A DNA stretch of 64,000 nucleotides, from NCBI GenBank assembly GCA_030674455.1, contig JAUSGQ010000044.1:13080-77079 (forward strand), read 5' to 3'. Source of the stretch: a bacterium. GTDB lineage: Bacteria > Patescibacteriota > Minisyncoccia > Phycocordibacterales > UBA2100. A model generated the notes under the pieces. It was not told where the DNA came from. It ran no database searches and saw only the letters and a list, made by a program, of their open reading frames with translations. Numbering within the stretch: the stretch's first letter is position 1; every line of letters starts with the position of its first letter. The translations under genes and the position numbers were made by a program. Below are positions 1-43,775 of this stretch, one piece after another.

Positions 1-48
1 GCGTCAATATATTATTCGACATAATGTTGTATTTAGAATTTATTAAAA

Positions 49-77
49 CCTATAACCTGACACCTATAACCTAAAAC
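49..77 (-). promoter_or_regulatory. AGGTTATAGG-type tandem leader motif before a probable rpsR start at the window edge
   Basis: Plus strand: aacctataacctgacacctataacctaaaac. Confidence 0.4.
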
Positions 78-592: not shown

Positions 593-1141
593 CTATTCAG
601 ACGTGATGTCTTTCAGGGCTTTCTCCAAATCTTCCTCCGATACCGGCACGGCGCTTTCTTCAGTCGCAGCTCGGCGTGGAGTCGACTTTATCGTATCTAC
701 GCGTTTCACTTCCCGCAATGTCGGGGCCTTTATTTTCGCGCGCGTATCCTCGCGGACGGTCCTCCAAATGACAAAACGGAGAATGCTGGGGTTTGCTTTC
801 AAAGAGTCATTCAAAATGGCCACAATTGAAGCCGGTGCTTCAAACTTTATCCATCCGAAATAACCGCGATCATATTCAGTATATTTCTCTCCCACGCGCA
901 CAGACATGGGGTACGCAAGCTTTAAGAGACTCGGTGCTCCTTCAGCAATAAATGCGGCCTTTCCTGTGGACGACTCGATAACCTTGCGGACCTCACCAAC
1001 CGTTTTCTCTATGTCTTCCTCTTTTACCGTAGGAATGATGTGATAGCCGATTTCGTATATGCGCGGCTCGGCGGGAACTTCCTCAATAGGTAGCGTGGCG
1101 GCCAAATCCGCGTCTAATAGTGTTGTTTCTTCTGTAACCAT
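593..1141 (-). CDS. rpsF: 30S ribosomal protein S6 (long C-terminal tail); start trimmed to internal ATG (MVTEETT..)
   Basis: S6-like core (YEIGYHIIP.., GWIKFEAP..). Immediately upstream of ssb. The 278-aa ORF in the track has an implausible 96-aa N-terminal extension. Confidence 0.75.
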   Translation of the reverse strand: MVTEETTLLDADLAATLPIEEVPAEPRIYEIGYHIIPTVKEEDIEKTVGEVRKVIESSTGKAAFIAEGAPSLLKLAYPMSVRVGEKYTEYDRGYFGWIKFEAPASIVAILNDSLKANPSILRFVIWRTVREDTRAKIKAPTLREVKRVDTIKSTPRRAATEESAVPVSEEDLEKALKDITSE

Positions 1142-1155
1142 GTAGCCGGCACTGT

Positions 1156-1187
1156 AACATAGGCAATGGGCACTAGGCAATAGGCTG
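1156..1187 (-). promoter_or_regulatory. related leader motif upstream of rpsF (shares TTGCCTAGTGCC with the ssb leader)
   Basis: acataggcaatgggcactaggcaataggctg. Confidence 0.4.
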
Positions 1188-1248
1188 TACGAGATGAGTA
1201 CATCGGCGAATTCTGACGATATTGGTCGTGAGGTGTTAATAACTAGCC

Positions 1249-1280
1249 ATAAACACTCACGGTCGTGATAGTTTATGGCT
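1249..1280 (+). repeat. 30-bp palindromic direct repeat, left copy (ccataaacaCTCACGGTCGTgatagtttatgg); overlaps start codon of the PaaX-like gene
   Basis: Near-identical copy at 1912..1945. The CTCACGGYCGTG core recurs on both sides of the paralog at 43.1 kb. Confidence 0.6.
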
Positions 1281-1859
1281 ATGGGGAATATCGAACGAGA
1301 AGCGAGAAGAAAGCGAGTCCGCGGATATGTACAAAAAGCCGTACTCGCAACCATAGCGATATCAGGAGTGCTGCTTGTTACCATGGCTGCGCCGAATACG
1401 TTACAGCTCCTAAAATACGTGCCCGGCATCAGACGCTACCGTTTTAACCAGCAGGCAGAAACTGCCCTTAGTCGCCTTGCACAGAAGAAGTGGATTACAT
1501 TTGAGAGGCACAATGGAAAGCGATTTGCTCGCATTACCGAGGCCGGGAGACATGCGTTCATGGCAGAGAACCGAAAAAACAAATTGATACCTCTCATAAA
1601 AAGACGATGGGATAAAAGATGGCGAGTAGTTATTTTCGATGTCCCAGAAAAACGCAGAGACGTGCGCGACCGGCTACGCTCCATGATGCGCGAGTTTGGT
1701 TTTGAGCATTTGCAAGACAGCGTATGGGTATATCCTTATGACTGCGAAGATATGGTTGCGCTTCTCAAGGCGGAACTTAAAATCGGATTTTCCGTACTAT
1801 ATATGGTTGTTGAACAAATCGAGAATGAGAAATACCTGAAAGAGAGATTCGACTTGTAA
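1275..1859 (+). CDS. PaaX-like small regulator with N-terminal TM helix (paralog of 43159..43728)
   Basis: 194 aa. TM helix, winged-helix-like segment (..RFARITEAGRHAF), then the motif RRWDKRWRVVIFDVPE..R..LR..GF..LQDSVWVYPYD shared with PaaX C-domains. Clear paralogy to the second copy. Confidence 0.6.
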   Translation: MAMGNIEREARRKRVRGYVQKAVLATIAISGVLLVTMAAPNTLQLLKYVPGIRRYRFNQQAETALSRLAQKKWITFERHNGKRFARITEAGRHAFMAENRKNKLIPLIKRRWDKRWRVVIFDVPEKRRDVRDRLRSMMREFGFEHLQDSVWVYPYDCEDMVALLKAELKIGFSVLYMVVEQIENEKYLKERFDL

Positions 1860-1911
1860 CAATAAAACCTGAAACAAGGTATCAGCCCTTTTCCCCCCCC
1901 CATCCCACTAA

Positions 1912-1945
1912 CCACAAACGCTCACGGTCGTAAGTATTTGTGGTG
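1912..1945 (+). repeat. 30-bp palindromic direct repeat, right copy (accacaaacgCTCACGGTCGTaagtatttgtggt)
   Basis: Direct repeat of 1249..1280. Hairpin-capable (accacaaa/tttgtggt). Confidence 0.6.
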
Positions 1946-2114
1946 TCCCTAGCAACTAGGTATACGGAATTGCGGGATGAGTACATGGGTGATTTTTATA
2001 AAAAATTGCCCGACCGAAGCCGGGCAAATACTATCAGCAAGAGGTTGCAAAAAAATGCCCGACCGCACGTGCGCATATCGAGCATTTTGAAAGAGCAAGA
2101 ATAGCTCTTCTTCA

Positions 2115-6300: not shown

Positions 6301-7359
6301 TTAATCCTCATTACTGGCGAACTTACGCTTGCTCTCGACATCCTTGATAAATTCTTGGAGAGCACCGGCCATTGGTACAGAAAGAAGTATGCCTAAAAAG
6401 CCCGCCAATTTCGCCCCCACGATGAGCGCCAAAATAACGAGAAGCGGAGGAACACCGACCACGCGAGTTACGACCAACGGATAAATCAGATGATTCTCAA
6501 ACTGCTGGGCAATGATGTACAAAGCAACGGTCAGCAATCCGAGTGTTGCGCCCCCGTCGACAAATCCGATGATAATTGCGGGGACGGAAGCAAGCGTTGG
6601 GCCGAATACGGGAATAATCTCAAATACCGCAGCAACGACGGCAAGAAAGAGACTGTGCTTTACTCCCAAAATCGTAAGGCCGAGATAAATCAGGACTCCC
6701 ATAATAACCGCGAGGAGGAGCTGCCCTTGCATCCATAGTCCGATTTTGTGCTGGGAACGGTTCCAGAGATTTAGAACGTATGTCTCATATTTTCTTGGGG
6801 TGACAATGCGCAGGAAATCCGTTACCCCTGTCTCAATCACGGCAAAATAAAATGAGAGGACGATGATTAGAATGAATGAAAGAACTCCTCCGAATATTTT
6901 GCTGACCGCGCTGAATGCATTGCCGAACGTGTCGCCTAGATTCAACACGTTGCGCACGGTATCCATGATTTCGTTCGTGGCTGCGCTTGGCGTAGCGACG
7001 CCCAAAATCCGCGCATAGTCATCAAATGCTCCCACGCGGCTGAACGCCTCAAGATAACTCGGGAGCGAAGCGACGAACGTCGCCAAATCCTCCAATACTG
7101 ACGGCAAAAAGAAATAGAAAATCCCAAAAAATACGCAGAATAAAAGAATGTAAATGATTATGACGGAGAGAAGCCGAGGCACTTTCCGCTTTACCAATCC
7201 CCTGATACCCGGCTCCATCGCTGATGCGAACACTACGGCAGTCACAACGACAAGCACGAGGTCGCGCAGGTAAAACAAAAGCCAAGCTCCGACGAGCAAA
7301 ACAACGATTTTTATGACCGTACCAAGCGTTATGGAGATGTTAAGCGGTCGGGATTCCAT
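6301..7359 (-). CDS. AI-2E family transporter (PerM/UPF0118)
   Basis: 352 aa polytopic membrane protein with typical AI-2E topology and conserved C-terminal region. Confidence 0.8.
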   Translation of the reverse strand: MESRPLNISITLGTVIKIVVLLVGAWLLFYLRDLVLVVVTAVVFASAMEPGIRGLVKRKVPRLLSVIIIYILLFCVFFGIFYFFLPSVLEDLATFVASLPSYLEAFSRVGAFDDYARILGVATPSAATNEIMDTVRNVLNLGDTFGNAFSAVSKIFGGVLSFILIIVLSFYFAVIETGVTDFLRIVTPRKYETYVLNLWNRSQHKIGLWMQGQLLLAVIMGVLIYLGLTILGVKHSLFLAVVAAVFEIIPVFGPTLASVPAIIIGFVDGGATLGLLTVALYIIAQQFENHLIYPLVVTRVVGVPPLLVILALIVGAKLAGFLGILLSVPMAGALQEFIKDVESKRKFASNED

Positions 7360-7414
7360 TAAGGCAATCCTAGCACAATCACAAAATTAGGGCTAAAGCC
7401 CTGCAATGAATGCT

Positions 7415-7452
7415 GTCATCATGTAATGTCCGGCCGGACATTACATGATGAC
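7415..7452. repeat. 38-bp perfect palindrome GTCATCATGTAATGTCCGGCCGGACATTACATGATGAC
   Basis: Read directly from the sequence. Lies in the perM-glyS spacer with no U-tract after it. Confidence 0.7.
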
Positions 7453-7498
7453 ATGAAGATCCAATGTAATTCTTTCGACGTTATTCACTGCCTTGTTT

Positions 7499-7538
7499 CC
7501 TGTACCATTCACTGACAGGTGTCAATGAATGGTACAGG
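7499..7538. repeat. 40-bp near-perfect nested palindrome CCTGTACCATTCACTGACAGGTGTCAATGAATGGTACAGG
   Basis: 13-bp outer arms plus an internal TGACAGGTGTCA palindrome. Confidence 0.7.
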
Positions 7539-7584
7539 AATAGACAAAACTTCCGTTCTCCCATTCCATATCTCCCTAGCCTGC

Positions 7585-8934
7585 TTAATTCACTTTGATT
7601 TGTTGCTCAAGCTCTGATACCGAAACCCGCTCCTGCTTACCCGTGTCGCGGTCGCGCACCGTCACGGTATCATCCTCGAGTGTCTGGAAATCAATGGTGA
7701 TGCAAACAGGCGTTCCTATCTCATCCTGCCGGCGATAACGCTTGCCGATGTTGCCGTTGTCGTCCCACATGATTTGCGGGACATTTTTCTTGAGACTCGT
7801 GTATACTTCGCGTGCTTTCGCGACAAGTTCCGGCTTATTTTTCAGCAAAGGAAACACGGCCGCTTTCACCGGAGCTACGGCCGGATTGAATTTGAGATAC
7901 GTCCTTGCTTCCTTTCCTAATGTGTCCTCCGTATACGCCGTTTGAAGTACTGCCAATATAATCCGCTCGACGCCGAACGAAGGCTCAATGACATGAGGAA
8001 TGAATTTGCCTTCCCCTTCTTCCAAATACTTGAGTTCAACTCCGCTCGAAGCTTCGTGTCTTGATAAGTCGAAATCCGTCCGGTATGCAAGACCGAACAG
8101 TTCTTTGCGTCCGAACGGAAAATCAAATTCAAAATCAATTGTTCTCTTGGAGTAGTGCGCGCGGTCTTCGGGCGATACTTCCAGTTCGTGAATAGAAGAT
8201 TTTTCTACCCCGATGCTTTTTAGGAAACCGAGAGACTGCTCGCGCCATATTTCAAAGCTCTCTTTCCATTCTTTCTCCCGAACAAAATATTCAATTTCCA
8301 TCTGCTCAAATTCGCGCGCGCGGAAAACGAAATCACGCGGGGCTATTTCGTTCCTGAATGCTTTGCCTATCTGTGCCATGCCGAACGGAAGCTTCGGATG
8401 GAACGAGTCGATAATGTTTTTAAAGTTGACGAATATTCCGCCGGCTGTTTCCGGACGCAGGTACGACGTTGATGATTCATCCTCCGTTGGGCCGACGTAC
8501 GTCTTAAACATCATGTTGAATTGGCGTACTTCAAACTTTTCATTATCTGCTCCGCAATTTTCACAAACCCATTTTTCTTTTCCAGCCAAAATCTTTCCCA
8601 GCTCGTTTTTTTGATACTTAATGCTCACGTGGTCTGCTCGGAATCGCCTCTTGCATTTCTTGCATTCCACCACGGGGTCGGAAAATCCGGCCACGTGGCC
8701 GCTCGCCTCCCACGCCTTCTTTTGCATGATGATTGCCGCGTCGACTCCGTACATATCGTCGCGCTCCTGCACGAACATTCTCCACCAGAGATTCTTGATA
8801 TTATTTTTTAGTTCCAACCCAAGCGGGCCGTAATCCCAGAACCCCGAAAGCCCGCCGTAAATCTCGGAGCCAGGATATATGAACCCACGCCTCTTAGCGA
8901 GCGACACTATCTTTTCCATTGTGACTTCAGTCAT
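7585..8934 (-). CDS. glyQS: glycine--tRNA ligase (class II, GlyQS type)
   Basis: N-terminus RRGFIYPGSEIYGGLSGFWDYGPLG is diagnostic, plus class-II motifs. Confidence 0.9.
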   Translation of the reverse strand: MTEVTMEKIVSLAKRRGFIYPGSEIYGGLSGFWDYGPLGLELKNNIKNLWWRMFVQERDDMYGVDAAIIMQKKAWEASGHVAGFSDPVVECKKCKRRFRADHVSIKYQKNELGKILAGKEKWVCENCGADNEKFEVRQFNMMFKTYVGPTEDESSTSYLRPETAGGIFVNFKNIIDSFHPKLPFGMAQIGKAFRNEIAPRDFVFRAREFEQMEIEYFVREKEWKESFEIWREQSLGFLKSIGVEKSSIHELEVSPEDRAHYSKRTIDFEFDFPFGRKELFGLAYRTDFDLSRHEASSGVELKYLEEGEGKFIPHVIEPSFGVERIILAVLQTAYTEDTLGKEARTYLKFNPAVAPVKAAVFPLLKNKPELVAKAREVYTSLKKNVPQIMWDDNGNIGKRYRRQDEIGTPVCITIDFQTLEDDTVTVRDRDTGKQERVSVSELEQQIKVN

Positions 8935-12094: not shown

Positions 12095-12130
12095 AGCAGG
12101 TTATAGGTTTTAGGTTATAGGTTTTAGGGA
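12095..12130 (-). promoter_or_regulatory. AGGTTATAGGTTTTAGG tandem motif between ileS stop and recO start (overlaps ileS last codons)
   Basis: aggttataggttttaggttataggttttaggg. Confidence 0.4.
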
Positions 12131-27778: not shown

Positions 27779-28060
27779 TTACGGAGTGGTTGTGTCGGAG
27801 GTTGTTGCCGCTGCAGGAGTTGTAGTCGAGAGATTGATATTATCAATCGTAACTGCCGGAACGTTTGCTACAGGCAGGGTTTCTAGCACGCTGCGCAATC
27901 CGGTAGTAAAAATGTAGTCAAAGAGGCCGAGGTATAGAGCAATGAAAACGGAAAGCAAAATGACGATTATCGTATACACGATGGTCTGAAGCTGCGTAGG
28001 CCAAGCCACGTGCCGTAATTCCCCGCGCGTATCTTTGAGGTACTGAAAGAAGGATGACAT
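27779..28060 (-). CDS. secE: preprotein translocase subunit SecE (with Thr-rich C-terminal tail)
   Basis: 93 aa. TRGELRHVAWPTQLQT followed by a TM helix. Position upstream of nusG-rplK. Confidence 0.7.
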   Translation of the reverse strand: MSSFFQYLKDTRGELRHVAWPTQLQTIVYTIIVILLSVFIALYLGLFDYIFTTGLRSVLETLPVANVPAVTIDNINLSTTTPAAATTSDTTTP

Positions 28061-28105
28061 AGGTTACAGGTGCTAGGTTTTAGGGAATAGGTTATAGGTT
28101 ATAGT
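28061..28105 (-). promoter_or_regulatory. tandem AGGTTAYAGG motif abutting the secE start
   Basis: aggttacaggtgctaggttttagggaataggttataggttatag. Confidence 0.4.
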
Positions 28106-28799: not shown

Positions 28800-29987
28800 T
28801 CAGACCACCCCGAATTTCTTGCCTACTTTTGTGAATTCTTCGACTGCCTTTTCAATATCTTTCTTTGTATGCGCGGCGGAGATTTGCACTCTGATGCGCG
28901 CTTTGCCTTTGGGGACGACGGGGAACGCGAAGCCGATGACGTAAATTCCTTCGTCAAAAAGCGCCTTCGCCATTTCAACCGCTTTCTTTTCATCGCCGAG
29001 CATTATGGGCGTTATCGGGTGCTGGGCGTTTGGTACGGCAAAACCATTCTTTTTCATCAAGTCGCGGAAGAGTTTCGTATTCTCCCACAAACGCTCGCGG
29101 AATTCCGCGTGCTTTTTCAGGTGATTGATTACGAAAAGAGATGTGCCGGTAACTGCCGTGTCCAGAGAATTTGAGAACAGGTATGAGCGCGAGCGATTGC
29201 GCAGATAATCGGCCGCCTCCGCGCGCGTGGCGATAAATGCTCCACCAGCGCCTCCGAGCGCCTTGCCGAATGTTCCAGTCACAAAATCCACGCGCCCGAC
29301 TACGCCGCAATGCTCCGGCGTGCCGCCGCCGTTCTTCCCCATCACACCCGTGGCATGTGCGTCGTCTACCATGACGAGGGCGTCGTATTTATCCGCAAGG
29401 TCGCAAATTTCTTTTAGCGGCGCGATGTCGCCGTCCATGCTGTAGACGCCGTCGGTCGCAACAACGCGCAGGCGCTTGCCACTAGACGCCTTAAGTTTTT
29501 CTTCCAAGTCGGCCATGTCCATGTGCTTATAGACCGCTCTCTCCGCTTTTGAGAGGCGCACCGCATCAATGATAGAGGCATGGTTCAGCTCATCGCTGAT
29601 GATTACATCCTGCTCGCCGAAGAATGTCTGAAAAAGTCCGACATTCGCCATAAAGCACGAAGAATACAAAACGGCATCTTCCGTGCCGACGAGTCTTGCC
29701 ACCGCGCTTTCCAAATCTTTGTGGACGGTTTGCGTCCCGCAAATAAATCGCACCGAGGCAAGTCCGAATCCCCACTTTTTAACTGCCTCTTCGGATGCTT
29801 TTTCCAAAAGTTCCGTGCCGGCTAGTCCCAAATAGTTATTCGCGCAGAAGTTCAGGTATTTTTTCCCGCCGACAGTTATCTCTCTGCCCTGCGAAGATTC
29901 GAGCACGCGCTCAACCTTATATGTGCCATTTTCCTTCGCGGCGGCAAGTTCAGCATCAAGAATCGGCTTCAATGTCTTGTACATCAA
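28800..29987 (-). CDS. kbl: glycine C-acetyltransferase (2-amino-3-ketobutyrate CoA ligase)
   Basis: 395 aa alpha-oxoamine synthase with ..NFCANNYLGLAG.., a PLP-lysine region and a GKALGGAGG motif. Confidence 0.8.
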   Translation of the reverse strand: MMYKTLKPILDAELAAAKENGTYKVERVLESSQGREITVGGKKYLNFCANNYLGLAGTELLEKASEEAVKKWGFGLASVRFICGTQTVHKDLESAVARLVGTEDAVLYSSCFMANVGLFQTFFGEQDVIISDELNHASIIDAVRLSKAERAVYKHMDMADLEEKLKASSGKRLRVVATDGVYSMDGDIAPLKEICDLADKYDALVMVDDAHATGVMGKNGGGTPEHCGVVGRVDFVTGTFGKALGGAGGAFIATRAEAADYLRNRSRSYLFSNSLDTAVTGTSLFVINHLKKHAEFRERLWENTKLFRDLMKKNGFAVPNAQHPITPIMLGDEKKAVEMAKALFDEGIYVIGFAFPVVPKGKARIRVQISAAHTKKDIEKAVEEFTKVGKKFGVV

Positions 29988-41148: not shown

Positions 41149-41202
41149 ACGGCAAAAATACCACTATGACACGTGCGCGGATAGAGGCCTATTCCCTGAG
41201 GC

Positions 41203-41706
41203 CTATTCCCTGATGAAGTCCGCATTTATAATCGGCTCTGAACCTCCTCCAATAAGTTTTCCCGTTACTTTTATGATATCGCCGGCGGTGATGTCTGAAA
41301 GTTCTGCTTTTTCGCCCTTCTGTGAAAAGATTTTTGTATACTTTTCGGTTTGCACTGTCCACATGAAACGCTGTCCGCCCCAATTTTGGCCGATGCGAAT
41401 GCGCTTGCCTTCAATCGAAAGCACCTGCGCACCGCGCAAAAGAACGAGGCCATTGTTCGCGATATGCATTTCAAGCATCGGAGCATTGGCGGATGAGGTT
41501 GCTCCCGTTGCCGGAGAATCAGATGCTGTCGCCCCCACCGAAGAAACAAAACTTGCTTTGTCGGAGCGCGCGCGTGAAAGAGCCTTATCGTTAATATTAA
41601 AGAAAAGTAAGCCGGTAACAGTGAGAAGATACGCAATAGAAAGTGCCGAGACTGAAAGTGTTTTGCCCGATAAGCCGTACCTTTGTATTGCCAAATTCAT
41701 GTTCAT
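41203..41706 (-). CDS. hypothetical exported/anchored protein
   Basis: 167 aa. N-terminal TM/signal and a Ser/Ala/Thr-rich linker; no recognisable family. Confidence 0.4.
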   Translation of the reverse strand: MNMNLAIQRYGLSGKTLSVSALSIAYLLTVTGLLFFNINDKALSRARSDKASFVSSVGATASDSPATGATSSANAPMLEMHIANNGLVLLRGAQVLSIEGKRIRIGQNWGGQRFMWTVQTEKYTKIFSQKGEKAELSDITAGDIIKVTGKLIGGGSEPIINADFIRE

Positions 41707-43036: not shown

Positions 43037-43125
43037 ATATGTACACCGCAGACTAACAGAAAATAGGAGAACAGAAAAGGTTGCGGCAGATTGCCGATCC
43101 GTAATCCGTTGCATTACATCCGTTC

Positions 43126-43146
43126 CACAATCCCTCACGGCCGTGT
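43126..43146 (+). repeat. direct repeat, left copy (caatccCTCACGGCCGTG) overlapping a -10-like TATAAT 8 nt before the ATG
   Basis: Repeated at 43745..43766 and related to 1249/1912 through the CTCACGGYCG core. Confidence 0.55.
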
Positions 43147-43158
43147 ATAATCGTTGAC

Positions 43159-43728
43159 ATGGGTAAATTGGAGTCCGAGTTCCGTTTGGAACGGCGAAAA
43201 GGATATGTGCGCGATGGCCTTCTTCTCGCCCTTGGGTTATCCGGTGCAATACTTTTTCCGTCCATAGCACTCGCTACACTCCAAATCATCGGTATAGCAG
43301 ACAGAAATAAACGCAAGTTCAGTTACCAGATAAAAAATGTTGCTTCCCGCTTGGCCAGTCAAGGTCTTGTTCGATTCAAGAACAAGGGATTTATCGAACT
43401 GACTGAAAGTGGACAGCGAGAATTTCACCGTTTAGAGCTGGAAATGGTACTGCGTTCCAACGTACGGCGAAAATGGGACAAAAGGTGGCGCATGGTCATA
43501 TTTGACATCCCGGAACGCTACCGGAATATCCGCGACAAACTTCGAGTGACACTTCAATCCTATGGATTTCACCAACTTCAACAAAGCGTTTGGATTTTCC
43601 CATACGACTGCGAGGACGTGGTTACGCTTCTGAAAGCTGATCTGGGTGTTGCTGGCTCGGTATTGTATGCAATAGTCGAGAAGCTCGAGAATGATTCGCG
43701 CCTTAAGCAGGAGTTCGGACTTCGGTAA
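43159..43728 (+). CDS. PaaX-like small regulator with N-terminal TM helix (paralog of 1275..1859)
   Basis: 189 aa. RRKWDKRWRMVIFDIPERYRNIRDKLR..GFHQLQQSVWIFPYDCEDVVTLLKADL is close to collinear with the first copy. Confidence 0.6.
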   Translation: MGKLESEFRLERRKGYVRDGLLLALGLSGAILFPSIALATLQIIGIADRNKRKFSYQIKNVASRLASQGLVRFKNKGFIELTESGQREFHRLELEMVLRSNVRRKWDKRWRMVIFDIPERYRNIRDKLRVTLQSYGFHQLQQSVWIFPYDCEDVVTLLKADLGVAGSVLYAIVEKLENDSRLKQEFGLR

Positions 43729-43744
43729 CGATGTCAACAATCCC

Positions 43745-43775
43745 TCACGGCCGCGAGGGATTGTTGACACGAGAG
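43745..43775 (+). repeat. direct repeat, right copy, palindromic (caacaatccCTCACGGCCGCGagggattgttgaca)
   Basis: Perfect 13-bp inverted arms around CACGGCCGCG. Same CTCACGGCCG core as the upstream copy. Confidence 0.55.

What the first reader, a model, noticed from the sequence alone, without database searches (positions are those of the whole stretch)
1249..1945. PaaX-like small membrane-anchored regulator gene bracketed by 30-bp palindromic direct repeats (locus 1)
The gene 1275..1859 is flanked by ccataaacaCTCACGGTCGTgatagtttatgg (1249..1280, overlapping its ATG) and accacaaacgCTCACGGTCGTaagtatttgtggt (1912..1945). Each repeat is itself hairpin-capable. A paralogous gene at 43159 is bracketed by repeats with the same CTCACGGYCG core. 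Conserved direct repeats on both sides of both paralogs suggest an autoregulatory operator duplicated with the gene, or a small site-specific cassette. The protein combines a TM helix, a winged-helix region and a PaaX-C-type domain (WDKRWRVVIFDVPE..LQDSVWVYP). This small-protein architecture is abundant but functionally uncharacterised in Patescibacteria-like genomes.
Basis: seen in the sequence. Interest (0 to 1): 0.6.

Follow-up and report, generated by a model that had tools for sequence, protein, structure and literature searches.

The report
Self-flanked mini-PaaX regulator gene cassette
A small PaaX-like DNA-binding protein gene in an uncultured Patescibacteria genome sits between two copies of its own 36-38-bp palindromic binding site, an arrangement shared by the whole family, and the unit comes and goes between related genomes as one roughly 750-bp block.

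Summary
Both paralogs (1281-1859 and 43159-43728) are bracketed by 34-38-bp palindromes. Exact CTCACGGYCG occurs only four times in 64 kb, always at these flanks.

In 76 homologous loci from Kaiserbacteria and Paceibacterota MAGs, nearly every gene has the same layout. The arms are specific to each locus, the centre is CGnnCG or CTATAG, and the outer block is ATCC..AA. The four half-sites at a locus resemble each other equally, which fits recognition by a protein better than hairpin pairing.

The upstream palindrome covers a leaderless promoter: TAnnnT lies 6 nt before the ATG in 66 of 81 loci. The protein is a truncated PaaX (winged helix plus Cas2-like PaaX_M, no PaaX_C). E. coli PaaX binds a 39-bp inverted repeat and represses its own promoter.

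Best reading: two cognate operators, one for autorepression. The role of the downstream copy is unproven (roadblock, loop anchor or, in some relatives, operator of the next gene).

The roughly 745-bp unit is missing from syntenic sites in close relatives. It sits elsewhere in its nearest homologue and, in several loci, is flanked by target duplications of about 56 bp. The insertion mechanism is unknown.

This is a new variant of a known kind.

The parts
1172..1212 (+). Outer direct repeat, copy a (41 nt, core GATGAGTACAT). Its first 13 nt match host sequence upstream of rpsF. From 1185 onward it is shared with the sister cassette in L081.
1185..1241 (-). Left arm of the cassette, conserved with L081. 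It carries a candidate outward promoter (TTAACA 1239-1234, 18 nt, CAGAAT 1215-1210) facing rpsF.
   Evidence: consensus match only; function inferred
1244..1281 (.). Upstream palindrome Pa1 (TAGCCATAAACACTCACG GT CGTGATAGTTTATGGCTA). Proposed operator covering the -35 to +1 region.
1269..1274 (+). -10-like hexamer TAGTTT, 6 nt before ATG 1281 (leaderless layout).
1281..1859 (+). Mini-PaaX gene 1 (192 aa): hydrophobic N-terminal segment, winged helix, Cas2-like PaaX_M domain.
1911..1944 (.). Downstream palindrome Pb1 (ACCACAAACGCTCACG GT CGTAAGTATTTGTGGT). Proposed second operator.
1955..1995 (+). Outer direct repeat, copy b (71% identical to 1172-1212). Aligns with the cassette-free site of L088.
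43124..43159 (.). Upstream repeat Pa2, a degenerate palindrome. It contains TCCACA (43124-43129), 16 nt, then TATAAT (43146-43151), 7 nt before ATG 43159.
43159..43728 (+). Mini-PaaX gene 2 (189 aa), 42% identical to gene 1.
43732..43769 (.). Downstream palindrome Pb2 (TGTCAACAATCCCTCACGG CCGCGAGGGATTGTTGACA; 19-nt arms, 95% complementary).

Best explanation
Each repeat is a binding site (operator) for the dimeric mini-PaaX protein encoded between them. The protein has a winged-helix DNA-binding domain and a Cas2-like PaaX_M domain, which is the dimerisation module in PaaX. It lacks PaaX's ligand-binding C-terminal domain.

A dimer would read a bipartite half-site twice: an outer ATCC..AA-type block 11-18 bp from the centre and an inner CG 2-3 bp from the centre. 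Together these span 36-40 bp, the geometry of the E. coli PaaX operator.

The upstream site lies over the -35, the -10 and the start of a leaderless mRNA, so occupancy would shut off the protein's own gene (negative autoregulation by occlusion, as PaaX does at Px).

The downstream site lies 0-30 nt after the stop codon and is a second cognate site without promoter elements. I infer that it acts as a protein roadblock or insulator, or as a loop anchor. In some relatives it is also the operator of the next gene's promoter.

The promoter, gene and two operators form a self-contained unit of about 745 bp that has been inserted as a block at different chromosomal places over evolutionary time.

Shown: the repeat architecture, its generality across the family, the promoter overlap, the fold, and the presence/absence of the unit. 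Inferred: binding, repression, the role of the downstream site, and the insertion mechanism.
For: 1. Generality. In 76 loci the up- and downstream flanks of one gene match each other far better than flanks from different loci (mean score 22.0 against 8.2). Palindromes with at least 13 of 19 paired positions occur in 50 of 76 upstream and 51 of 76 downstream flanks (background mean 10.0, 95th percentile 12).

2. Fixed positions. The upstream centre lies at about -18 (29 loci between -17 and -21) or at -38 to -45 relative to the ATG. The downstream centre mostly lies 15-30 nt after the stop.

3. Bipartite half-site. C at position 3 is invariant, position 2 is G, and an outer ATCC..AA block is conserved. 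Positions 5-10 are variable.

4. Equal similarity of half-sites. All four half-sites at a locus are equally alike: 0.59-0.68 at variable positions against 0.30 between loci, and 0.84-0.91 against 0.56 in the outer block. This is what a shared protein recognition code predicts. It is not what hairpin pairing or a simple duplication predicts.

5. Promoter overlap. TAnnnT starts at -12 or -13 in 66 of 81 loci (background 0.9% per position). At locus 2 the repeat itself contains TCCACA-16-TATAAT.

6. Protein identity. PaaX_M scores E 4e-21 and 2.5e-22. The TIGR02277 PaaX model aligns residues 59-163. The best Foldseek matches are E. coli PaaX 8A39 and Rv0674 3KFW, then Cas2 proteins.

7. Precedent. 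E. coli PaaX binds TGATTC-N27-GAATCA (39 bp) and represses its own Px promoter by steric hindrance (PMC9493321).

8. Specificity tracks the protein. Clades with different recognition-helix sequences have different outer blocks. This is confounded by shared ancestry.

9. Extra copies at other promoters. In L068 a third copy of the locus-specific palindrome lies in front of a gdh gene. In several class-B loci the downstream copy is followed by TATAAT or TATACT, then 7-12 nt, then the ATG of a conserved PD-(D/E)XK nuclease gene.

10. Cassette behaviour. The closest homologues sit in unrelated contexts. Syntenic sites in L088 and L091 lack the unit. Similarity between cassettes starts and stops at the outer palindrome edges in dozens of pairs.
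Against: - No binding data exist. Everything about binding rests on sequence patterns and analogy with PaaX.
- A regulator whose only detectable sites in 64 kb flank its own gene has no evident target.
- The hydrophobic N-terminal 19-mer (mean Kyte-Doolittle hydropathy 2.2) has more K+R on its N side in 57 of 60 sequences. By the positive-inside rule this would put the DNA-binding part outside the cell.
- AlphaFold gives pLDDT below 50 for residues 7-50, so the first helices of the winged-helix domain are not confidently modelled.
- The Pfam PaaX N-terminal model and PaaX_C are not detected.
- The role of the downstream copy is not established. It retains a -10 at the same offset in only 5 of 46 loci. 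My rough ORF-based gene calling (unreliable for short genes, and it miscalled the neighbours of both window loci) found the downstream neighbour convergent in about 40% of loci.
- The invariant Asp in FD[IV]PE, at the position of the Cas2 catalytic Asp (the Cas2 role is from my own knowledge), hints at an enzymatic activity that a plain repressor would not need.
Confidence: 0.6

Rival explanations
1. The palindromes work as RNA or single-stranded DNA hairpins. The downstream one would be a terminator or 3'-end stabiliser, and the upstream one would sequester the start codon.
For: Pa1 and Pb2 fold strongly as RNA (-19.7 and -27.7 kcal/mol, z about -6). The ATG lies inside the right arm of class-A upstream palindromes. 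Some downstream copies in orthologues are perfect palindromes with compensatory differences, for example L081 and L082. The gene has no canonical terminator of its own.
Against: Pa2 does not fold better than shuffles (z +0.9) and Pb1 folds only weakly (z -2.6). Variable stem positions 5-10 are paired in only 50-70% of palindromes. Left and right arms of one palindrome are no more alike than arms of different palindromes at the same locus. With a -10 box 6 nt before the ATG, the upstream copy is mostly not transcribed. No T-run follows the downstream copies, although canonical terminators do occur in this genome. No Rfam family matches.
Confidence: 0.1
2. The palindromes are the recognition ends of a minimal mobile element. 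Its single protein (winged helix plus a Cas2-like nuclease domain) would catalyse or direct insertion, producing target duplications of about 56 bp.
For: The unit is present or absent between close relatives. A 92%-identical homologue sits in another context. There are outer direct repeats of 55-58 nt with 740-761 bp between them in several loci. These include insertions inside the spc operon and into the 3' ends of beta-CASP, epimerase and obg genes. The Cas2-type Asp is invariant.
Against: Identical proteins seen on 23 contigs each always sit in one context, so there is no recent movement. Paralogs within a genome are old and divergent, and the same classes recur across species, often with conserved synteny. 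The ends of the inserted DNA are 10-120 nt away from the palindromes and carry no shared motif. No relatives were found on viral contigs. Outer repeats were seen in only about 10-13 of 64-80 loci.
Confidence: 0.1
3. The two repeats are directly oriented recombination sites for a host recombinase (lox-like or dif-like), making the gene an excisable cassette.
For: They are two similar 34-38-bp palindromes with a short central spacer flanking one gene. Presence/absence varies between relatives. Solitary palindromes of similar style occur in the window at 7414-7453 and in L068 and L013.
Against: The cassette-free site in L088 has no palindrome left behind. The centre is symmetric in 21 loci and oppositely oriented in 6 of 24 loci with asymmetric centres, so the sites have no fixed direction. 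The arms differ between paralogs in one genome, which a single host recombinase could not read. No recombinase gene is linked to the cassette.
Confidence: 0.04
4. The C-terminal domains face outward from the membrane and act as a sequence-specific receptor for extracellular DNA carrying the gene's own flanking palindromes, a self-promoting uptake signal.
For: The hydrophobic 19-mer has more K+R on the N side in 57 of 60 sequences. The layout, an N-terminal anchor followed by a DNA-binding domain, resembles the competence protein ComEA (my own knowledge).
Against: The upstream palindrome coincides with the promoter at fixed positions in the whole family. PaaX is a cytoplasmic repressor with the same operator geometry. 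The palindromes are not spread through the genome as uptake sequences are. The net charge of the two flanks is nearly equal (+3.4 against +2.9).
Confidence: 0.03

Closest known systems
PaaX, the phenylacetyl-CoA-responsive repressor of E. coli and Pseudomonas (PDB 8A39, 3L09; Rv0674 3KFW)
   Same: It has a winged-helix domain followed by the central Cas2-like PaaX_M domain. Its operator is a long inverted repeat with recognition blocks at the outer ends (39 bp against 36-40 bp here). It represses its own promoter by occlusion.
   Different: The protein here has 190-197 aa instead of about 305-316. It has no PaaX_C ligand-binding domain, and no Pfam PaaX N-terminal match was detected. It has a strongly hydrophobic N-terminal segment. 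There are no paa genes nearby. A conserved CG-nn-CG centre is an extra feature of the site. A second operator lies after the stop codon. Several paralogs occur per genome, each with its own site. The Cas2-type Asp is retained, whereas Rv0674 has no Asp at the aligned position.
Cas2 (CRISPR adaptation protein) and VapD
   Same: The C-terminal domain shares the ferredoxin-like fold and the sequence motif (V/I)(F/Y)D(I/V)...R...G...Q.SV(W/F). Structural matches come directly after PaaX. NCBI names many members 'CRISPR-associated endonuclease Cas2'.
   Different: The domain is fused to a winged helix. The tandem-repeat scan found no CRISPR-like array in the window, and no cas gene appears among the called genes listed for related loci. 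The Pfam Cas2 score is below the gathering cut-off (21.6 against 23.8). The sequence is much closer to PaaX_M.
AspA of Sulfolobus plasmid pNOB8 (winged-helix centromere-binding protein)
   Same: There is a weak sequence match in the recognition helix and wing (E 0.15-0.27). AspA binds a palindrome next to its own operon (my own knowledge).
   Different: The match is not significant. AspA has no Cas2-like domain and no partition genes occur here.
REPtron (a RAYT transposase gene flanked by REP palindromes) and IS200/IS605 ends
   Same: A single gene is bracketed by palindromes that its own product is thought to recognise (my own knowledge).
   Different: No HUH or Tyr motifs are present. The palindromes are not spread through the genome. 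The half-site statistics argue against hairpin recognition.

Membership tests
PaaX family transcriptional repressor | Central Cas2-like domain (Pfam PF20803, PaaX_M) | tested here: met
   E 3.8e-21 and 2.5e-22, 75-79 bits against a cut-off of 24.
PaaX family transcriptional repressor | N-terminal PaaX winged-helix domain (Pfam PF07848) | tested here: inconclusive
   PF07848 is not listed at E <= 1. However, TIGR02277 aligns residues 59-163 to model positions 37-138, which include the recognition helix and wing. AlphaFold shows a helix followed by a beta-hairpin at 50-85, and residues 7-50 have low confidence.
PaaX family transcriptional repressor | C-terminal helical ligand-binding domain (Pfam PF08223, PaaX_C) | tested here: not met
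   There is no match, and the protein ends about 10 residues after the Cas2-like domain.
PaaX family transcriptional repressor | Equivalog-level match to TIGR02277 | tested here: not met
   50 and 38 bits against a cut-off of 264.55.
PaaX family transcriptional repressor | Long inverted-repeat operator overlapping its own promoter | tested here: met
   A 36-40-bp palindrome covers -37 to +1 or -60 to -22 of a leaderless promoter. For comparison, E. coli PaaX binds TGATTC-N27-GAATCA. Actual binding was not tested.
PaaX family transcriptional repressor | Response to phenylacetyl-CoA and linkage to paa genes | not testable with these tools
   No paa gene appears among the ORFs and called genes I inspected around either locus or in related loci, but I did not run a systematic search for paa genes. 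Ligand response needs an experiment.
Cas2 (CRISPR-associated endonuclease) | Match to Cas2 models above the curated cut-off | tested here: inconclusive
   TIGR01573 scores 25.4 and 26.6 against a cut-off of 24.5 (just met). Pfam PF09827 scores 21.6 and 20.5 against 23.8 (not met).
Cas2 (CRISPR-associated endonuclease) | Stand-alone protein of about 90-110 aa next to cas1 and a CRISPR array | tested here: not met
   The domain is fused to a winged helix in a 192-aa protein. The tandem-repeat scan found no CRISPR-like array in the window. No cas gene appears among the called genes listed for related loci.
Transposable element with terminal repeats | Several near-identical copies, or identical copies in different contexts | tested here: not met
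   Identical proteins on 23 contigs each always have the same neighbours. The paralogs in the window are 42% identical.
Transposable element with terminal repeats | Target-site duplication and empty sites | tested here: inconclusive
   Empty sites were found in L088 and L091. Outer repeats of 55-58 nt occur in 5 loci and shorter ones in others, but only in about 10-13 loci overall.
Membrane-anchored one-component regulator | Transmembrane helix with the DNA-binding domain in the cytoplasm | tested here: inconclusive
   The 19-mer has mean hydropathy 2.2 in all 60 sequences. Flanking charges slightly favour N-in, and AlphaFold does not model the segment as a confident helix.

The most novel reading that the evidence does not exclude
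The unit would be a new kind of minimal mobile genetic element. A single protein, built from a winged helix and a Cas2-like nuclease domain with the catalytic Asp retained, would recognise the paralog-specific palindromes near the element's two ends. It would direct insertion with an unusually long target duplication of about 56 bp. This would give it the ability to land inside operons such as spc while supplying its own insulated, self-repressed promoter. It would be a Cas2-lineage counterpart to the casposon/Cas1 story.
Probability: 0.1. Interest if true: 0.9.

Novelty: new variant of a known kind. Interest (0 to 1): 0.62.

Why it matters
Almost no transcription factor from Patescibacteria (the candidate phyla radiation) has been characterised. 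Here a widespread family comes with its predicted operator at every locus, including paralog-specific half-sites. That gives a ready-made set of matched protein/DNA pairs for working out a recognition code and for testing regulation in these organisms.

The dual-operator, leaderless, single-gene unit is also a compact, self-contained regulatory module. Its presence/absence pattern, its insertion into ribosomal-protein operons and the recurrent target duplications of about 56 bp point to an insertion process that current categories of mobile elements do not obviously cover.

The analysis also shows that many database entries naming these proteins 'CRISPR-associated endonuclease Cas2' are misleading.

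Tried and rejected
- **Shared family-wide motif.** CTCACGGYCGTG is not conserved across the family. Only the CG-nn-CG or CTATAG centre and the outer block are shared.
- **Extra copies in the window.** Searches with the arm sequences found none. The near-match at 29085 lies inside a coding region (kbl-like gene) and is probably chance.
- **Known RNA family.** Rfam gave nothing at the repeats.
- **Hairpin model.** Rejected as the main explanation.
- **Downstream copy as a duplicated promoter.** It keeps the -10 at the same offset in only 5 of 46 loci.
- **Preferred orientation of neighbours.** My crude ORF-based gene calling showed no bias (46/34 upstream, 48/35 downstream). It is unreliable for short genes and miscalled the neighbours of both window loci.
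- **lox-like directional sites.** The centre orientation is not fixed.
- **Phage or plasmid vehicle.** No relatives were found in viral contigs.
- **Defence-system membership.** PADLOC returned only weak Cas2 hits.
- **Recent transposition.** Identical proteins always have the same context.
- **Rest of the source contig.** The look-up failed because the protein is not on record in that index.
- **Literature.** No paper in the searched library combines PaaX with Patescibacteria or with 'Cas2-like'.
- **Conserved terminal motifs.** I inspected the ends of the inserted DNA by eye and found none.
Full report
**1. The observation**

The gene and the four repeats are present. The repeat finder reports 1242-1278 and 1907-1943 as direct repeats (78% identical). 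Each is itself a palindrome:
- 1244-1261 / 1264-1281, 89% complementary
- 1911-1926 / 1929-1944, 81% complementary

The second gene (43159-43728) is bracketed by 43124-43159 and 43734-43769 (81% identical). Its downstream copy is a near-perfect 38-bp palindrome at 43732-43769.

Exact CTCACGGYCG occurs four times in 64 kb, all on the + strand and only at these flanks. The proteins are 42% identical and there is no third paralog in the window.

The start codon is more likely ATG 1281 than 1275. The 192-aa product is identical to a deposited MAG protein. Homologues are 190-197 aa and begin MG. The -10 spacing also fits 1281.

**2. The protein**

Pfam finds only PaaX_M, the central Cas2-like domain of PaaX (E 4e-21 and 2.5e-22). 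Matches to Cas2 and to winged-helix models fall below their cut-offs. PaaX_C is absent.

The NCBIfam PaaX model aligns residues 59-163, but at 50 bits against a cut-off of 264.55. The cas2 model only just passes, which explains why NCBI names many members 'Cas2'.

An AlphaFold model built from 60 sequences has mean pLDDT 71.6. It shows a helix plus beta-hairpin (residues 50-85) followed by a beta-alpha-beta-beta-alpha-beta domain. Residues 7-50 score below 50. The best Foldseek matches are E. coli PaaX (8A39) and Rv0674 (3KFW), followed by many Cas2 structures.

The hydrophobic 19-mer at about residues 20-38 is real (mean hydropathy 2.2 in all 60 sequences). Its flanking charges do not settle the topology.

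The protein is therefore a truncated, PaaX-like regulator. It is not a PaaX orthologue and not a CRISPR Cas2.

**3. The architecture is a property of the whole family**

The family has 805 cluster representatives at E <= 1e-5 and 580 confirmed stretches in GTDB species genomes. All of the 80 loci kept come from Patescibacteria-type MAGs, mostly labelled Kaiserbacteria or Paceibacterota, and there are often three or more paralogs per genome.

In the 76 usable loci, the upstream and downstream flanks of one gene resemble each other far more than flanks from different loci (mean score 22.0 against 8.2). Both flanks hold a palindrome: at least 13 of 19 positions are paired in 50 of 76 upstream and 51 of 76 downstream flanks. 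The background mean is 10.0 with a 95th percentile of 12.

The upstream centre sits at about -18 relative to the ATG (29 loci between -17 and -21; class A, with the ATG inside the right arm) or at -38 to -45 (class B). The downstream centre is mostly 15-30 nt after the stop.

The arms differ completely between paralogs. The shared features are:
- a centre of CG-(GT/AC/GC/AT)-CG or C-TATA-G, with C at position 3 invariant
- an outer block reading ATCC..AA at positions 18-11

**4. Protein site or hairpin?**

Positions 5-10 of the arms vary between loci and are complementary in only 50-70% of palindromes.

At a given locus, the four half-sites are all equally similar to one another. This holds for upstream-left, upstream-right, downstream-left and downstream-right. 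The values are 0.59-0.68 at variable positions against 0.30 between loci. Selection for a hairpin would make the two arms of one palindrome the most alike. A simple duplication would make left-left and right-right the most alike. Equal similarity fits four copies of one recognition sequence.

RNA folding is also inconsistent across the four window copies (z -6.3, -2.6, +0.9, -6.5). No Rfam family matches.

Clades with different recognition-helix sequences have different outer blocks. Shared ancestry confounds that comparison.

**5. Promoter overlap**

A TAnnnT hexamer starts at -12 or -13 from the ATG in 66 of 81 loci, against 0.9% per position at control ATGs. This leaves 6-7 nt before the ATG, which is the layout of a leaderless mRNA.

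At locus 2 the repeat itself reads TCCACA-16-TATAAT. At locus 1 the -10 is TAGTTT at 1269-1274.

The class-A palindrome thus covers -37 to +1. E. coli PaaX binds TGATTC-N27-GAATCA (39 bp) and represses its own Px promoter by steric hindrance (PMC9493321). Negative autoregulation through the upstream repeat is therefore the best-supported mechanism.

**6. The downstream copy**

It rarely keeps a -10 at the equivalent offset (5 of 46 loci), so it is not simply a duplicated promoter.

In several class-B loci (L039, L045, L047, L061, L077, L056) it is followed by TATAAT or TATACT, then 7-12 nt, then the ATG of a conserved PD-(D/E)XK nuclease gene. There it could be the operator of the next gene.

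In both window loci, however, the next gene is convergent. Neither gene has a canonical terminator of its own.

I infer a second operator that acts as a roadblock or insulator, or as a loop anchor. This step is not shown.

Third copies are rare. One precedes a gdh gene in L068, and one lies 337 nt upstream in L013.

**7. Cassette behaviour**

The closest homologues sit in unrelated contexts:

| Locus | Identity to window protein 1 | Neighbours |
|---|---|---|
| Window | - | rpsF \| unit \| small gene, TatD |
| L081 | 92% | rplS \| unit \| acylphosphatase |
| L082 | 74% | rplC \| unit \| RNase T |
| L084 | 68% | different again |

Nucleotide similarity between the window and L081 runs from 1185 to the end of Pb1 and stops there.

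Two relatives keep the order TatD, small gene, rpsF, ssb with no such gene in between. Their S6 proteins are 86% (L088) and 80% (L091) identical to the window's. Window 1141-1183 and 2000-2029 align to L088, with only 80 nt between them there instead of 816 nt.

In dozens of pairwise comparisons, similarity begins at the left edge of the upstream palindrome and ends at the right edge of the downstream one.

**8. Duplicated target sequence**

In the window, a second pair of direct repeats (1172-1212 and 1955-1995, 71% identical) brackets the unit. Exact GATGAGTACAT occurs only there.

Thirteen of the 83 loci screened by BLAST give an outer-repeat hit. Three of these look like something other than duplicated target. 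In the remaining hits the repeat is a duplicated end of a neighbouring gene:
- the 3' end of a beta-CASP gene (L008, L011, L016)
- the 3' end of an epimerase gene (L010)
- the 3' end of obg (L001)
- the 5' end of comEC (L080)
- the 3' end of rplE, where the unit sits antisense inside the spc operon between L5 and S14 (L030, L072; the unit also occupies this site in L066, where no repeat was detected)

The best-preserved repeats are 55-58 nt long, and the DNA between them is 740-761 bp in seven loci. L030 and L072 carry different paralog classes at the same rplE site.

I could not identify the mechanism:
- No recombinase is linked to the unit.
- The ends of the inserted DNA show no shared motif and lie 10-120 nt outside the palindromes.
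- The central dinucleotide has no fixed orientation between the two copies (18 same, 6 opposite, 21 symmetric).

Movement is rare. Proteins identical in sequence, found on 23 contigs each, always have the same neighbours. No relatives were found on viral contigs.

**9. Verdict**

The protein is PaaX-like, but through PaaX_M rather than PaaX_C. The operator reading is the best explanation for both repeats. The 'cassette' reading is supported as presence/absence of a block, not as site-specific recombination at the palindromes.

Relative to PaaX this is a new variant: truncated, with a hydrophobic N-terminus, dual operators flanking a leaderless gene, paralog-specific sites, and block-wise insertion. 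No description of it was found in the searched literature.

The most novel reading not excluded is a Cas2-lineage mobile element. I put it at about 10%.

Noticed in passing
window 7414-7453 and 7497-7540: Two solitary long palindromes lie in the intergenic region between an AI-2E-type permease gene (6301-7359, -) and glyS (7585-8934, -). One is a perfect 40-bp palindrome (TGTCATCATGTAATGTCCGGCCGGACATTACATGATGACA), whose CGGCCG centre resembles the family's sites. The other is a 44-bp palindrome. No mini-PaaX gene is nearby. They could be operators for a paralog encoded elsewhere, relics, or unrelated.
   Followed up: partly
L008, L010, L016, L030, L072 (coordinates); window 1172-1212 / 1955-1995: Duplicated target segments of a recurrent length (55-58 nt) flank about 740-761 bp of inserted DNA. 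There is no recombinase and no terminal motif, so the insertion mechanism is unexplained.
   Followed up: partly
L030 2526-4252; L066 and L072: The unit sits antisense inside the otherwise conserved spc ribosomal-protein operon, between rplE (L5) and rpsN (S14) or rpsH. L030 and L072 carry different paralog classes at the same site.
   Followed up: partly
L008, L011, L012, L016, L022, L036, downstream of the unit: The orphan copy of the beta-CASP gene's 3' end keeps an open frame and a conserved ending (..KDSVKKI*) across species. This ending is more uniform than the tails of the functional genes. In L016 it forms a 24-codon ORF starting with ATG. Gene conversion or some function may maintain it.
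   Followed up: partly
81 homologous loci; window 1269-1274 and 43146-43151: TAnnnT occurs 6-7 nt before ATGGG in 81% of loci, implying leaderless mRNAs in these Patescibacteria. The library search returned no paper that has this as its subject.
   Followed up: yes
window 1185-1241 (- strand); L081 592-648: The left arm of the unit, conserved between the window and L081, carries an outward-facing promoter-like site. In the window this is TTAACA-18-CAGAAT. In L081 I read TTCACA-17-TAAACT by eye. In both cases it points at the adjacent ribosomal-protein gene (rpsF, rplS). The unit may supply a promoter to its neighbour.
   Followed up: partly
L039, L045, L046, L047, L056, L061, L077, downstream flank: The downstream palindrome is followed by GATAGTC-TATAAT or TATACT, then 7-12 nt, then the ATG of a conserved PD-(D/E)XK nuclease gene. 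This is the same geometry as the regulator's own class-B promoter.
   Followed up: partly
L068 695-728; L013 2664-2695: Third copies of the locus-specific palindrome occur here. In L068 the copy lies just upstream of a glutamate dehydrogenase gene, 2.3 kb from the regulator. In L013 it lies 337 nt upstream of the ATG, after a terminator.
   Followed up: partly
window 40-70, 536-565, 1160-1185, 12098-12128, 28059-28104, 41184-41213: Short repeated motifs (TAGGCAAT(G/A)GGC, AGGTTATAGGTTTT, ATAGGTT, GAGGCCTATTCCCT and their complements) recur. The copies I inspected lie in intergenic leaders, for example upstream of ssb and rpsF. The rpsF copy is conserved in L088 and L091.
   Followed up: no
window 2000-2029 and 2049-2078 (- strand): Two similar terminator-like hairpins with T-runs lie on the minus strand after the convergent small gene. 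The first is conserved in L088. Weak sRNA hits (SorX, Ysr49) fall below their gathering scores and are probably chance.
   Followed up: no
public annotation of the family (P0004, P0005, P0016, P0042, P0058, P0082, P0108): Many members are named 'CRISPR-associated endonuclease Cas2' in NCBI records, although they are winged-helix/PaaX_M fusions. No cas gene appears among the called genes of the loci where such lists were returned.
   Followed up: yes
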